The position numbers are program-made. A stretch of 13,211 bases of DNA from a virus (lineage: Duplodnaviria > Heunggongvirae > Uroviricota > Caudoviricetes): IMG/VR virus record IMGVR_UViG_2695420745_000006; one strand, given 5' to 3'. Shown here in pieces: positions 6,001 through 12,000 of the stretch. Numbering within the stretch: position 1 is the stretch's first letter; the number at the start of each line of letters is the position of its first letter.

Positions 6001-9000
6001 TTCTTATTGACGGTCTGCGTGATTTCATTGCTGACATCCGTAATGGACGTCCTGATTTCAGCCAGGTCAGGCGCAAGCTGACCGTTATCAATCTGCGTCC
6101 ACAGCTCCTGAGCCAGATGGGTTTTCCCTATCTCGCCTTTGAAAAAATCCAGATAACCGGATGCATCATCACTCGGCTGACCAACAGCCTCCACGAATGC
6201 CGATTTGCCAACGGTGTTCACACTGCGGATATAAAAGTAATAATCATGGCCCGGTTTGATATTGATACTGGCGGCTATCCAGTACAGCGCCGTGCCAAGA
6301 TAGCGTGCTGTGGTTTCAACCTGCCTGATATCCGCAATCCGCTTTTCCGAGAACCAGAACTCAAACTGTACCGTCGGATCATAAACCGCAAGATGCGGCG
6401 TGGCGGTTATCTGAAAATAGCCCGGCGTCAGCTCAATCCGCGACAGCGCTGCCGGTGCGGCAATCCGGAACGATACCGACGCCGGATCGCCCTGCTGCCC
6501 CCACGCATTTACTGCCCGGACTGTCAGCCTGTAGTTCCCCAGCGCCAGTTGTGTGAAGCGGTAAGTGGTTTCCGTCGTCCGGGCCGTGCTGACCAGCCGC
6601 TCACTGCCGTCATCCGCTGTTACGGTCAGACGGAGCAGGAAGCTCACGCCCTTCACCACCTTCGGCGTGTCCCAGCGCGCCAGCACCTGATATTCCCCGC
6701 TGTCTGCGGTGACTTCGGCAGTCAGGTGCTGCACCGCTGGCGGCGTGACACCATTCACCGTGCCGCTCTGGTCGCCGTCAAAGTGCGCCCCGTTATCCAC
6801 GATGGCTTCTTTTTCCGGCACATGCTGCACGGCGGTGATGGCATACGTGCCGTCGTCGTTCTCACGGATACTCACGCAGCGGAACAATCGCTGGTGCAGC
6901 GTCGGCAGCTTCAGCCCCCACACGCTGTATTCAGCAACACCGTCAGGAACACGGCTCACTTTTACCTTCACGCCGTCGGTGACGGACTGGACCTCCACGC
7001 TGACCGGATTCCCCTGCCCGTCAACCAGGCTTATCAGCGTGGTGCCGGAGGATGGCAGCGTGATTTCACGGTCGAGCGTCAGCGTCCGGGTCTGGCTGTT
7101 CACCGCCAGCACGCGCCCGCCGGTGCGGATACCGGCATAGTCATCATCGCAGATTTCAATGACATCGCCCGGTACATGACGAAGCCCTTCAGCACCCACG
7201 CTGAAATCCACGGTCTGCGTCTCCAGCAGTTCCGTTTTAATCAGCCACAGCCCGGCGCGGTGTGCCTGCCCCCGGCTGGTACAGCCAAAGGCATCCATCT
7301 TCGTGACGTTACGACCGTAACGGACAATGGCCTGCGTATCCTCCACAAGCTCTGTCGCCGTCNNNNNNNGTCTTTCTGGCTGGCGGTTCAGGGTATTTGA
7401 GGTAGCGTCTGACCGTCCGTTCAGAGCAACCAATCTGAGTCGCAATATCGACGATGTACGCGCCCTGCTGGCGCATTTGCTTTATCATGTAAAAGTCCTC
7501 TCTGCTCAGCATGTTGATGTCCTTTCTGGTGTGAGAACCTTAAGGAAACAACATGTTGGGTGGAGCGGACAATCCAAATGGCGAATTACCGTCTTATATC
7601 ACTGGCGCTGACACTTCATCACCTCCGGACGTAAATCACCATCCTTTGGTGCATTCAGAAACGCGTTCAGTGTCCCCGGTGCATCAGTCGGTGCCACATC
7701 AATATCCCCGACACGGGTTGGCTGCCAGCCGTTACAGTGAAGCGCAACCTCGTAATACCCCGGCTCAGCCTCAATCACATAAGCACCGTTATTGTCCGTC
7801 ACGCAAGTGGCAACAACGTGTGCCACAACGGTCGGACTGGTTCTTCTGGCCCGCAGTTCAATCGCACAATTTACGACAGGTTTACCCGCCCCATCTTTCA
7901 GTACACCTGAAATCTTTACTGCCATATTCACCCCACAAAAAGCCCGCCTGAACCAGCGGGCAGTCATAACACTGTGTTACCTGGCTAATCAGAACTTATA
8001 ACCGACACCCACGATGAAACCGTCAGTGCGCCAGTCACCACTGCCGGAACCTTCATAAGCAAGGTCAATGGCCACGGATTCGGTCGGGTTAAACTGCACG
8101 CCAGCCCCCCACGCCAGAGACGTGTTGCTGTGGCGACCGCCATCACTTCCGGTCAGCACATCGTGCGTTTTCCCCTTGTTGTCAGTTACGCGGAGATAAT
8201 CCCCGGAGAAGGTCGACACACGGCTGTAAGCCACGCCCGCCATCGCATACGCGCTGAACCATTCATTCACGCGCACAGACGGCCCCGCCATCACGCTGAA
8301 CCAGCGGTTACGCACGGAATCCTCATGCCAGCGGGTATCGCTGTAATGCGTTTTTTGCTCATCTTCAGCGTTGGCATAACTGAATGACGTAATCAGCCCC
8401 AGCGTGTCCGTAAACTCATAACGGTATTTCACGTTAATGCCCTTCAGGTCATCGCTGCCTGGCATATCAGTATGGGTCTGAAGATACCCGGCGCTCAGCG
8501 TGGACTGATGTTCAGACGCCCATGCAGGCGCACCGGATACGGCCAGACAGATGGCTGCGGACAAAATGGCTGCACAAACTTTACGCATAATTACCTCTCG
8601 CTTTTCTGCAATAAAAAAGGCACCATTTCTGGTGCCCGTATCTGGGTTATAAAATTCAGCTAATCGTGATGCCTGCAGTGGCTTTCTTCATCACCACAAC
8701 CAGCAAATCGCTGATACTTGCTGTGGGATACCAGCCATTTACCAGCCATGCCGATACAGAAAACTCCAGCGTCATGTGACCGTGACCGGCAGGCATATCA
8801 ATAACACCCGTATATATCAGCGTATTATCCAGGGTCGTTCGGTTATAAATTTCAGCACCGTTTTTCTTCACTATCAGGCGGCATGACGAATAAATATTGT
8901 TATTCTTCCGCTCATGTTTAGCACCGCGAAACGCCACCGCGGGAATAACAATTTGCCGATCAAACGGCTGATCGTCATAAACCCTGACGGTAATGGTCCC

Positions 9001-12000
9001 TGATGGCCACCTCTCCGGTGCCCGGGAGTCCCGTGGGAAAGGTTTGCCCACTGTTTTAACGAGATCGCCTTCAATCTGGTTCGCGGACAATTTTCCCAGA
9101 ACCCGACAGTTCTTATTAATCGTGACGTTGTTGAGCGTCCCGGAGTTCGCGTTCACGTTACCGCTGATATCGGCATTTTTCGCCGTCAGCCGTCCGCCAG
9201 GTGTCAGGGAAAATGCCGGAGGATTACCGCCGCTGGTAATGGTCGGAGCCGTCAGGCATTTCAGGAACACGTCGTTCATGAATATCTGATCGCCCTGACC
9301 AACAAACATCGGCTTTGTGTTGCCATTCGCAGGATTAATCATCGCAATCCTGTCTGCCGCCAGCAGCACCTGACTCTGCATTCCTGCTGGCGTATTCTCA
9401 ATACCGGCACCGATACCCGCAATATAAAGGCGTCCGTCCTTCATCTGTTGCAGCTTCACAGCCCACATGCTGTTCAGGTTATTATTTGTATCAACCTGAA
9501 CTTTCTGTATCTGCTGGATTGCAGCACTCTGATTTTCCAGTTTTTTATTGACGGTTTGCGTGATTTCATTGCTGACATTCGTAATGGACGTCCTGATTTC
9601 AGTCAGGTCCGGCGCAAGCTGACCGTTATCAATCTGCGTCCACAACTCCTTGCCGAGATGCGTTTTATTGATCAACCCTTTATAAAAATTCAGATAACCT
9701 TCTGCATCATCGCTCGCCCGACCGATGGCCTCCACAAATGCCGATTTGCCAACGGTGTTCACACTGCGAACGTAAAAATAATAATCATGGCCCGGCCTGA
9801 TATTGATACTGGCGGCTATCCAGTACAGCGCCGTGCCAAGATAGCGTGCTGTGGTTTCAACCTGCCTGATATCCGCAATCCGCTTTTCCGAAAACCAGAA
9901 CTCAAACTGCACCGTCGGGTCATATACAGCCAGTTTCGGGACCGCCGTTATCTGAAAATACCCCGGTATCAGTTCAATAGTGACAGGCGCTGCCGGTGCC
10001 GCAATCCGGAACGATACCGACGCCGGATCGCCCTGCTGCCCCCACGCATTTACTGCCCGGACTGTCAGCCTGTAGTTCCCCAGCGCCAGTTGTGTGAAGC
10101 GGTAAGTGGTTTCCGTCGTCNNNNNNNNNNNNNNNNNNNNNGCGGCGTGGCGGTTATCTGAAAATAGCCCGGCGTCAGCTCAATCCGCGACAGCGCTGCC
10201 GGTGCGGCAATCCGGAACGATACCGACGCCGGATCGCCCTGCTGCCCCCGGGCATTTACCGCCCGGACTGTCAGACTGTAATTCCCCAGCGCCAGCTGCC
10301 TGAAGCGGTATGTGGTTTCCGTCGTCCTGGCTGTGCTGACCAGCCGCTCACTGCCGTCGTCCGCTGCCACGGTCAGGCGAAGCAGGAAGCTCACACCCTT
10401 CACCACCTTCGGCGTGTCCCATCGCGCCAGCACCTGATATTCCCCGCTGTCTGCGGTGACTTCGGCGGTCAGATGCTGCACCGCTGGCGGCGTGACACCA
10501 TTCACCGTGCCGCGCCGGTCACCGTCAAAGTGTGCCCCGTTATCCACGATGGCCTCTTTTTCCGGCACATGCTGCACGGCGGTGATGGCATACGTGCCGT
10601 CGTCGTTCTCACGGATACTCACGCAGCGGAACAGACGCTGGCGCAGCGTCGGCAGCTTCAGCCCCCACACGCTGTATTCTGCAACGCCGTCAGGAACCCG
10701 GCTCACTTTCACCTTCACGCCGTCGGTGACGGACTGGACCTCCACGCTGACCGGATTGCCACTTCCGTCAACCAGGCTTATCAGCGTGGTNTCCGTAAAC
10801 TCATAACGGTATTTCACGTTAATCCCGTTCAGATCATCACTGCCGGGAACGTTGGTCCGGGCATGAAGATACCCCGCGCTCAGCGTGGACTGATGTTCAG
10901 ACGCCCATGCAGGCGCACCGGATACGGCCAGGCAAATGGCTGCGGACAAAATGGCTGCACAAACTTTACGCATAATTACCTCTCGCTTTTCTGCAATAAA
11001 AAAGGCGTCATTCCTGACGCCATTTATTGGGGTTATAAATATTTCAACGAATACTGATGCCGGAAGCCGCTTTTTTGGTCACAATCACCGTACAGTCGGT
11101 GATATTGCCTGCCCCCTGATTGCCTTTCTGGAAAATCTTAAACTCCAGAGTGACGCTACCACCACCACTAGGCATATCAATAACTGCACTGTAACTACCG
11201 GGAATGGCACCTTTAGTTTCTCTGGATGCGATTAATACGCCGTTTTTGCGAACTTCAAAACCATAACCCGTGTATCGCGTGCCTCCTGGGTTATTTCCGC
11301 TCCCCGGATCGTCATACGCTATACCGTTAAAAATAATGGGCGGAATAATAATCTGGCGGTCAAAGTTATGATCATCGCTTATGGTGACTGTAACCGTCCC
11401 GTTTGGTGTTTCCGTGTTACCCCACGTACCAGCCTGTTTCGGAAATGATTTGGATACAGCTTTAACGAAGTCACCTCTGACCTGAGTCGCCTCCAGCATG
11501 CCCTTAATCGTACAGTTTTCATTTACCGTGACATTGTTGAGCGTCCCGGCGTTCGCATTCACACTGCCACTGATATCCGCATTTTTAGCGGTCAGCTTTC
11601 CGTCCGGAGTCAGGGAAAATGCCGATGGATTTCCACCGCTGGTAATGGTGGGGGCCGTCAGGCGTTTCAGGAACACGTCGTTCATGAATATCTGATCGCC
11701 CTGACCAACAAACATCGGTTTTGTGTTGCCATTCGCAGGATTAACCATCGCAATCCTGTCCGCCGCCAGCAGCACCTGACTCTGCATGCCGTCAGGGGTG
11801 TTCTCAATACCGGCACCAATACCCGCGATATAAAGGCGTCCGTCCTGCATCTGCTGCAGCTTCACAGCCCACATGCTGTTCAGGTTATTATTTGTATCAA
11901 CCTGAACCTTCTGTATCTGCTGAATTGCCGCACTCTGGTCTTCCAGTTTCTTATTGACGGTCTGCGTGATTTCATTGCTGACATCCGTAATGGACGTCCT

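What the first reader, a model, noticed from the sequence alone, without database searches (positions are those of the whole stretch)
8656..9110. Two distinct C-terminal domain alleles of tail tip protein J in one genome
J in modules A and C ends ...[34 protein letters not shown], while module B ends ...[37 protein letters not shown]. The last 150 residues or so are strongly divergent and the upstream part is near-identical; both differ from lambda J. The J C-terminus determines receptor choice in lambda (LamB), so these prophages probably target different outer-membrane receptors. The sharp identity-to-divergence transition indicates modular recombination. The corresponding module A region is about 5097-5550.
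Basis: partly seen in the sequence, partly recalled or inferred. Interest (0 to 1): 0.55.

Follow-up and report, generated by a model that had tools for sequence, protein, structure and literature searches.

The report
Two known phage J receptor-domain types
The window holds pieces of several lambda-like prophage tail genes carrying two already well-known versions of the receptor-binding tip of protein J, and both versions most likely bind the same porin, OmpC, so this is ordinary prophage mosaicism, not a new host-range switch.

Summary
The sequence observation is real. Modules A (5097-7362) and C (11044-13211) have the same J C-terminus; module B (8656-10120) has a different one. A and B are about 91% identical upstream and about 40% identical over the last 150 residues or so. 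Identity returns about 40 nt after the stop codon. The divergent block is the Pfam Ig_GpJ_C receptor-binding domain plus the J terminator.

The interpretation mostly fails.
- Allele A is 94% identical to the phage 434 J tip. Phage 434 uses OmpC, and a lambda/434 J swap retargets lambda to OmpC.
- Allele B is about 92% identical to the gpJ "1A2" graft and 93% to VT1-Sakai J. The 1A2 graft was shown experimentally to use OmpC.
They may still differ in which OmpC variants they accept.

Both alleles are very common: B-type is in 3378 and A-type in 2113 of 5426 complete E. coli genomes. They also co-occur in the same O157 strains.

The window is a scaffold with three N gaps and chimeric joins, so the tandem "modules" are an assembly product, not a real locus.

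Verdict: already known, low interest.

The parts
5097..7362 (-). Module A: 3' 755 codons of a lambda-type J (tip attachment / central tail fibre) gene, cut off at an N gap
   Evidence: Translation. Pfam domains in order: Phage-tail_3, Ig_J, Ig_J_second, Phage_Tail_Tip, Ig_GpJ_C. 95-100% identical to lambda J up to about residue 810.
5056..5585 (-). Allele A variable cassette: last CSF strand, Ig-like receptor-binding domain (PF12421 at 5103-5510), stop codon and terminator stem. This is the 434 type.
   Evidence: Boundaries from the DNA alignment. 94.3% identical to the phage 434 J C-terminus. Terminator-like hairpin at 5057-5074.
8656..10120 (-). Module B: 3' 488 codons of a second J gene, cut off at an N gap
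   Evidence: The reading frame is open from 10120 to the stop at 8656.
8618..9126 (-). Allele B variable cassette: receptor-binding domain (PF12421 at 8659-9048), stop codon and terminator stem. This is the O157 Sakai / gpJ 1A2 type.
   Evidence: for boundaries. 93% identical to VT1-Sakai J and 100% to E. coli CFSAN029787 J in this block. 154 of 168 comparable residues match the gpJ 1A2 graft. Hairpin at 8618-8637.
11044..13211 (-). Module C: second copy of the allele A J gene (722 codons); it runs off the window end
   Evidence: 100% identical to A over the shared J sequence.
11003..11532 (-). Allele A cassette, second copy (module C)
   Evidence: Offset of +5947 from module A; identical sequence. 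Hairpin at 11004-11021.
10142..10790 (-). Isolated middle fragment of a third J variant between two N gaps
   Evidence: 94% identical to A 6395-7043 and different from B where they overlap.
7989..8588 (-). lom of module B (199 aa, full length): the downstream conserved flank of the cassette
   Evidence: Pfam Ail_Lom, positions 1-199 of 199. 95-100% identical to the module A lom at its 5' end.
4544..5026 (-). lom of module A, truncated to 160 aa by a deletion of about 78 nt
   Evidence: Pfam Ail_Lom, positions 1-159 of 199. Gap relative to B and to L005.
10792..10973 (-). 5' part of the module C lom, joined across a single N to a J fragment
   Evidence: The fused ORF 10065-10973 is an artefact of the join.
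1362..4451 (-). Side tail fibre gene (stf, 1029 aa) of module A
   Evidence: Pfam phage_tail_N, Phage_fiber_2, Collar. Same gene order as lambda J-lom-stf-tfa.
781..1362 (-). Tail fibre assembly gene (tfa, 193 aa)
   Evidence: Pfam Caudo_TAP.
7599..7967 (-). N-terminal stub of the module B stf, interrupted by an insertion sequence
   Evidence: Pfam phage_tail_N, positions 1-104 of 134. Homology to intact stf genes starts at window 7614.
7370..7613 (-). End of an insertion sequence: N-terminal helix-turn-helix part of a transposase
   Evidence: HTH_23 and HTH_7 hits. This stretch matches other places in E. coli genomes, not the stf locus.
7363..7369 (.). Scaffold gap (7 N)
10121..10141 (.). Scaffold gap (21 N)
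10791..10791 (.). Scaffold join (1 N) between a lom fragment and a J fragment

Best explanation
The window is a gapped scaffold of short contigs from the tail-fibre ends (J-lom-stf-tfa) of at least three lambda-like prophages in a draft enterobacterial assembly. Their J genes carry two alternative versions of one homologous, roughly 0.5-kb cassette. The cassette encodes the C-terminal Ig-like receptor-binding domain (RBD) plus the J terminator. Version A/C is the phage 434 type. Version B is the O157 Sakai / gpJ 1A2 type.

The cassette lies between two stretches that are nearly identical among lambdoid phages. Upstream is the end of the central straight fibre, ...[21 protein letters not shown]. 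Downstream are the terminator T-tail and the lom 5' end. Homologous recombination between co-resident or superinfecting phages can therefore swap it. This step is inferred.

In the virion the RBD trimer at the tip of J inserts its loops into an outer-membrane porin and triggers tail opening. This has been shown for lambda and LamB, and for A8 gpJ and OmpC, but not here. Both versions in this window belong to types shown experimentally to use OmpC. The most likely functional difference is therefore which OmpC surface-loop variants each accepts, not which protein is bound.
For: Anatomy:
- N gaps and segment structure.
- Domain order of J, and lom/stf/tfa identities.
- Synteny with lambda and with an intact prophage in E. 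coli CFSAN029787.

Cassette:
- Identity profile and both boundaries.
- The terminator stem differs by compensating changes while the T-tail is conserved.

Allele assignment:
- A is 94.3% identical to 434 J.
- B is 93% identical to VT1-Sakai J and about 92% to gpJ 1A2.

Receptor evidence for those types:
- 434 uses OmpC, and the J swap retargets lambda (PMC11101478, PMC3509688).
- 1A2 and A8 chimeras, grafted at lambda J residue 964, deliver DNA through OmpC in a lamB-deleted background.
- Phage phi330, with an A8-type RBD, needs ompC (PMC12502783).
- PDB entry 9wcb contains both 'A8 gpJ 713' and OmpC chains.

Commonness:
- B-type is in 3378 and A-type in 2113 of 5426 complete E. coli genomes.
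- The same O157 strains (for example JNE090861, JNE122137, 2499) carry a B-type J in the Stx2a phage and an A-type J in the Stx1a phage.
Against: - No receptor was tested for the exact sequences in the window.
- Allele B differs from 1A2/VT1-Sakai at about 12 of 174 residues. Four of these lie in one short loop (HEKEHTD to HERKNNN), which could change specificity. This sub-variant is rare: only 15 of 3401 matching records are at least 95% identical in DNA.
- The 1A2 comparison rests on a machine-read PDF with insertion and deletion errors, so the 92% figure is approximate. It is backed by the clean 93% match to VT1-Sakai, which the readable parts of 1A2 match almost exactly.
- Single RBD mutations are known to widen porin use in lambda and phi21 (PMC11336670), so type membership does not fix the receptor.
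- Recombination is inferred from the mosaic pattern only.
- All J genes here are 5'-truncated by contig ends, so their integrity cannot be judged.
Confidence: 0.75

Rival explanations
1. One reading: the two RBD alleles direct their phages to different outer-membrane proteins, for example OmpC for one and LamB, FadL or another protein for the other.
For: - The two RBDs are only about 40-43% identical, no closer to each other than either is to LamB-binding lambda J.
- The window's B allele carries a distinct loop (RKNNN) not present in the tested 1A2/Sakai type.
- Few mutations can shift porin use in related phages.
Against: - Each allele is 92-94% identical to a type with experimentally shown OmpC use.
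- A third, equally divergent type (A8/phi330) also uses OmpC. Low identity between RBD types therefore does not predict a different receptor protein in this family.
Confidence: 0.2
2. The difference is a sequencing or assembly artefact: frameshifted reads, a collapsed repeat consensus, or a chimeric contig.
For: The assembly is poor. It has three N gaps, a lom-J fusion across a single N, and duplicated modules.
Against: - Both frames are open and align codon for codon.
- The allele B block is identical in protein to the J of a complete genome, and 99.8% identical in DNA.
- The allele A block is 99.3% identical in DNA to complete genomes.
- Both match PF12421 over its whole length.
Confidence: 0.02
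3. The two alleles do not share a cell: the scaffold mixes contigs from two strains, through contamination or a metagenome bin.
For: The scaffold joins are clearly unreliable. No complete genome or species-representative genome matches the window exactly.
Against: Carrying several lambdoid prophages with different J tips is the norm. The median is 4 J-region matches per genome and the maximum is 18. The same two types co-occur in named O157 strains.
Confidence: 0.08

Closest known systems
Phage 434 J (central tail fibre, OL657226, CPT_434_21), the classical h434 host-range determinant
   Same: The allele A/C C-terminal 174 residues are 94.3% identical. The gene order J-terminator-lom-stf is the same. 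Both have the 6-residue longer loop ([12 protein letters not shown]) and the shorter C-terminal loop.
   Different: Ten substitutions in 174 residues. The window copy is a 5'-truncated prophage fragment with a truncated lom. Receptor use was not tested here.
gpJ 1A2 chimera (Brodel et al., Nature 2024, PMC11338833) and J of prophage VT1-Sakai (AP000400)
   Same: Allele B is 93% identical to VT1-Sakai J and about 92% to the 1A2 graft over the last 174 residues. The published graft point, lambda J residue 964, lies in the same conserved stretch that forms the natural upstream boundary here.
   Different: About 12 substitutions, four of them clustered in one loop (KEHTD to RKNNN). The window variant is a rare sub-type, found at 99.8% in only 8 complete genomes.
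Lambda J receptor-binding domain bound to LamB (PDB 8xcj, 8xck; PMC11101478)
   Same: Same Pfam domain (PF12421) and same position at the C-terminus of the same multi-domain protein. Sequence alignment runs to the last residue.
   Different: Only 41% (A) and 46% (B) identity in the RBD. Lambda binds LamB. Both window alleles also carry a helical-shaft segment about 28 residues longer than lambda's.
A8 gpJ / phage phi330 J (PDB 9wca, 9wcb with OmpC; PV189401)
   Same: It is the best-scoring solved structure for both window J fragments. It is a third OmpC-using RBD type of the same family.
   Different: 65% identity to B and 47% to A in the RBD; neither window allele is this type.

Membership tests
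Lambda-type tip attachment protein J (central tail fibre) | Domain order Phage-tail_3, two Ig/FNIII domains, tail tip fibre (helical shaft and straight fibre), C-terminal Ig-like RBD | tested here: met
   All five Pfam families are found in this order in A. The last four are found in the shorter B fragment.
Lambda-type tip attachment protein J (central tail fibre) | N-terminal hub domains that close the tail tube | tested here: inconclusive
   All three J copies are cut at contig ends or the window end. The first roughly 380-650 codons are absent from the window.
Lambda-type tip attachment protein J (central tail fibre) | Position in the tail module, followed by lom, stf and tfa | tested here: met
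   J-lom-stf-tfa in module A, J-lom-stf stub in B, J-lom in C. Same order in lambda, 434 and a complete prophage.
434-type (h434) J receptor-binding domain | High sequence identity to the 434 J C-terminus through the whole RBD, including its characteristic loops | tested here: met
   Allele A/C: 94.3% over 174 aa with no gaps.
434-type (h434) J receptor-binding domain | Infection or adsorption depends on OmpC | not testable with these tools
   Known for 434 and lambda-h434 hybrids from the literature only.
Sakai / gpJ 1A2-type J receptor-binding domain | High sequence identity to the 1A2 graft and VT1-Sakai J through the RBD | tested here: met
   Allele B: 93% to VT1-Sakai; 154 of 168 comparable residues to 1A2.
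Sakai / gpJ 1A2-type J receptor-binding domain | DNA delivery depends on OmpC (EDL933-type variant) | not testable with these tools
   Shown for 1A2. The window allele differs in one loop.
Lambda-type LamB-binding RBD | Close identity to the lambda J RBD (phi21 J, which also uses LamB, is 94% identical in DNA) | tested here: not met
   41% (A) and 46% (B) protein identity in the RBD.
HK97-type J C-terminus | Sequence similarity to the HK97 J C-terminal 184 residues | tested here: not met
   No significant alignment (best E-value 0.03).

The most novel reading that the evidence does not exclude
The window's allele B is a rare sub-variant of the Sakai/1A2 type whose altered loop (HERKNNN instead of HEKEHTD) and about eight other substitutions have shifted its specificity. 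The shift could be to OmpC surface-loop variants that the common type cannot use, or to another porin. Together with the 434-type allele in the same cell, recombinant phages from this lysogen could then reach hosts with different OmpC alleles.
Probability: 0.15. Interest if true: 0.3.

Novelty: already known. Interest (0 to 1): 0.12.

Why it matters
It matters little as a discovery. Swappable J tips among lambdoid phages have been known since the lambda-h434 hybrids. Both tips here are catalogued types found in a large share of E. coli genomes.

The useful lesson is a caution for annotation. Three J receptor-binding domains that are only 40-65% identical (434, 1A2/Sakai, A8/phi330) all use OmpC. 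Sequence divergence of this domain alone therefore does not predict a change of receptor protein.

The natural cassette boundary found here coincides with the graft point that engineers use to retarget lambda particles. This supports that design choice.

Tried and rejected
- Source genome. A 51-nt exact search of the species-representative genome collection found one contig (E. coli SCPM-O-B-8794, L005). It is only 96% identical to the window, so it is not the source. No complete E. coli genome holds the window's arrangement: the best 'places' cover 91% of the query but span only 7.4 kb, because the repeated modules map onto one locus.
- Literature on close relatives of allele A (Perceval, ev207, phi458, 2B8). 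No receptor data were found.
- The receptor-prediction preprint covers Drexlerviridae-type GpJ, not lambda-type RBDs.
- Phi21 J is lambda-type (LamB) and so not informative for A or B.
- HK97 J has an unrelated C-terminus.
- Direct tblastn/blastn of the window alleles against the 1A2 and A8 sequences copied from the machine-read supplement gave broken or no alignments. The cause was reading errors, and apparently recoded DNA for 1A2. I wrote a frameshift-tolerant protein-to-DNA aligner. The first version timed out and the second worked.
- Loci L003 and L004 were stored inside L002.fa, so one script failed. I used the translate tool instead.
- I did not run structure prediction or the large homologue searches. 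Pfam, PDB sequence matches running to the last residue and the 92-94% matches to characterised alleles already settle fold and family.
- One paper search failed on a term that was too short.
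Full report
**What the window is.** The 13,211-base window is not one continuous piece of chromosome. It has runs of N at 7363-7369, 10121-10141 and 10791, which split it into four segments.
- Segment 1 (1-7362) carries, on the minus strand, tfa (781-1362), a 1029-codon stf (1362-4451), a truncated lom (4544-5026) and the last 755 codons of a J gene (5097-7362).
- Segment 2 (7370-10120) carries the end of an insertion sequence (7370-7613), an stf stub (7599-7967), a full lom (7989-8588) and the last 488 codons of a second J (8656-10120).
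- Segment 3 (10142-10790) is a middle piece of a third J variant.
- Segment 4 (10792-13211) carries the start of a lom and 722 codons of a J identical to that of segment 1.

The join at 10791 fuses a lom N-terminus to the middle of J in one reading frame (ORF 10065-10973), which is a scaffolding artefact. When the whole window is searched against 5,426 complete E. coli genomes, the best hits cover 91% of it but span only 7.4 kb, because the repeated modules all map to a single J-lom-stf-tfa locus.

**Check of the observation.** The quoted C-termini are present.
- Modules A and C are identical throughout the shared 2.4 kb except for two synonymous differences at the start of lom.
- A and B are identical at 290 of 318 aligned residues (91%) upstream and at 55 of 136 (40%) over the last five 30-column bins. 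The change falls near lambda J residue 975-985.
- In DNA, the high-identity stretch ends at about A 5585 / B 9126, right after the codons for ...GTLNNVT. It resumes at about A 5055 / B 8617, roughly 40 nt past the stop codon.
- The downstream boundary lies inside the J terminator. The stems differ (GGCGTCA/TGACGCC in A, GGGCACCA/TGGTGCCT in B) but both still pair, and the T-tail, the lom ribosome-binding site and the first 130 nt or so of lom are identical.

The variable unit is therefore a cassette of about 510-530 bp with conserved sequence on both sides.

A frameshift or read artefact is excluded. Both frames are open and align residue by residue with shared motifs. Both match Pfam PF12421 (Ig_GpJ_C, 'C-terminal receptor binding domain') over its full length, at 5103-5510 in A and 8659-9048 in B. 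The blocks are 99.8% (B) and 99.3% (A) identical in DNA to finished genomes.

**What the two alleles are.**
- Allele A/C is the phage 434 type. The last 174 residues are 94.3% identical to 434 J without gaps. They are 97-99% identical to the J proteins of phages Evi, 2B8, cdtI, ev207, phi458, Perceval, the Stx2c phage 2851 and many Stx1a phages.
- Allele B is the O157 Sakai type. It is 93-94% identical to the J of VT1-Sakai, 2G7b, the PPompW prophages and long-tailed Stx2a phages, and identical in protein to the J of E. coli CFSAN029787.
- The supplement of Brodel et al. (Nature 2024) prints the sequences of two engineered lambda J chimeras, 1A2 and A8. After allowing for reading errors in the stored PDF, allele B matches the 1A2 graft at 154 of 168 comparable residues. 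The readable parts of 1A2 agree almost exactly with VT1-Sakai J.
- A8 is a third type, the same as phage phi330. It is 65% identical to B and 47% to A.
- Lambda's own RBD is 41% identical to A and 46% to B. HK97's J C-terminus is unrelated.

**Receptors.**
- Phage 434 uses OmpC, and lambda carrying the 434 gene in place of J binds OmpC (PMC11101478, PMC3509688).
[quoted passage not shown] They were shown to deliver DNA through OmpC in a lamB-deleted host. A8 used both MG1655 and EDL933 OmpC; 1A2 used EDL933 OmpC only. Between them they covered 21 of 23 OmpC variants.
- Phage phi330 fails to plaque on an ompC deletion and recovers on complementation (PMC12502783).
- The PDB holds 'A8 gpJ 713' alone (9wca) and in an entry that also contains three OmpC chains (9wcb).

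Three RBD types that are only 40-65% identical to each other all use OmpC, and the two in this window are two of those three.

What remains plausible is a finer difference: 434 works on K-12 OmpC, whereas 1A2 did not. That is an inference, because the exact window sequences were not tested. Allele B also differs from 1A2/Sakai at about 12 residues, four of them in one loop (HEKEHTD to HERKNNN).

**Mechanism.** By homology with lambda (shown there, inferred here), J forms a trimer whose C-terminal Ig-like domains insert four loops into the extracellular mouth of a trimeric porin. Binding spreads the domains, twists the straight fibre and opens the tail (PMC11101478). The window alleles keep the fibre sequence immediately upstream and vary mainly in loop-length and loop-sequence positions of the Ig domain.

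The cassette structure explains how tips are exchanged. It has about 140 nt of near-identity upstream and about 130 nt of identity downstream. It sits in genomes that typically hold several such prophages: the median is 4 matches to this J-lom-stf-tfa window per genome and the maximum is 18. Recombination itself is inferred, not observed. The upstream part of J is also patchy (for example 41 of 60 at A 6162-6103 and 46 of 60 at 6462-6403), so the mosaic has more than one junction.

**How common it is.**
- B-type sequence (at least 80% DNA identity over the block) is in 3378 of 5426 complete E. coli genomes, with up to 9 copies per genome.
- A-type is in 2113 of 5426.
- Public phage records from the same O157 strains (JNE090861, JNE122137, 2499, JNE102772 and others) show a B-type J in the Stx2a phage and an A-type J in the Stx1a phage.

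Two J tip types in one genome is therefore routine. The only slightly unusual point is that the window's B sub-variant is rare: 15 of 3401 matching records are at least 95% identical.

**Verdict.** The domain assignment and the recombination idea are reasonable. The 'different receptors' claim is not supported, and the 'three modules' layout is an assembly product. Both alleles are known types. Novelty: already known. Interest: low (0.12).

The most novel reading left open is that the rare loop variant of allele B has a shifted OmpC-variant range or a new receptor. I put that at about 15% probability, with modest interest if true.

Noticed in passing
window 7363-7369, 10121-10141, 10791: Runs of 7, 21 and 1 N split the window into four contigs. 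ORFs that cross them are artefacts, for example 5097-7445 (J fused to a transposase fragment) and 10065-10973 (lom N-terminus fused to the middle of J).
   Followed up: yes
window 1-31: The first 31 bases are the reverse complement of what I recall as the terminal inverted repeat of IS1 (GGTGATGCTGCCAACTTACTGATTTAGTGTA). The first contig would then begin inside an IS1 copy, a typical contig break in IS-rich Escherichia/Shigella genomes. This rests on memory and was not checked with a tool.
   Followed up: no
window 7370-7967: An insertion-sequence end (helix-turn-helix transposase N-terminus) abuts an stf gene cut after about 104 residues of its N-terminal domain. None of 5426 complete E. coli genomes contains this junction, while the stf/lom part is 99.7% identical to several of them. 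Prophage B thus appears to have lost its side tail fibre to an IS insertion. The IS family was not identified.
   Followed up: partly
window 4544-5026 (near 4550-4555): The module A lom lacks about 78 nt that are present in the module B lom and in the related contig L005. The product is 160 aa instead of 199 and covers only positions 1-159 of the Ail/Lom profile. I could not tell whether this is a real deletion or an assembly error.
   Followed up: partly
window 10142-10790: An isolated 649-nt middle piece of J that is 94% identical to module A and differs from module B where they overlap. This implies at least a third distinct J gene in the assembly.
   Followed up: partly
window 4972-5031 versus 10919-10978: Modules A and C differ only by two synonymous changes in adjacent lom codons (ATC TGT versus ATT TGC). 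They are therefore either two nearly identical prophage copies or a repeat consensus assembled twice.
   Followed up: partly
window 5057-5074, 8618-8637, 11004-11021: The terminator-like hairpin just after each J stop codon has different stem sequences in the A and B alleles that still pair. The T-tail is conserved, so the terminator travels with the receptor-binding cassette.
   Followed up: yes
window about 5730-5745 and 9271-9286 (codons for QIFMND): Both J alleles keep the phenylalanine equivalent to lambda J F924. A 2026 paper (PMC13043305) identifies this residue as the trigger for the Gifsy-1 HepS abortive-infection nuclease, and the Gifsy prophages carry isoleucine there. By that rule these J proteins would be HepS triggers.
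   Followed up: no
window 6040-6170 and 9580-9710 (J residues aligned to lambda 820-870): Relative to lambda, both window alleles carry a different helical-shaft segment that is about 28 residues longer (…[49 protein letters not shown]…). This is a second mosaic block, shared by A and B but not by lambda.
   Followed up: partly
window 32-780: AT-rich stretch (33-38% G+C against about 50-60% elsewhere) downstream of tfa, with no ORF longer than 52 codons. It could be a moron remnant or a regulatory region. It was not examined further.
   Followed up: no
window 3000-4000: The middle of stf is 61% G+C and encodes a long Ala/Ser/Thr-rich repetitive region. This produces long spurious ORFs in other frames and on the opposite strand (3041-3817, 3086-3853, 3199-3948).
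   Followed up: no
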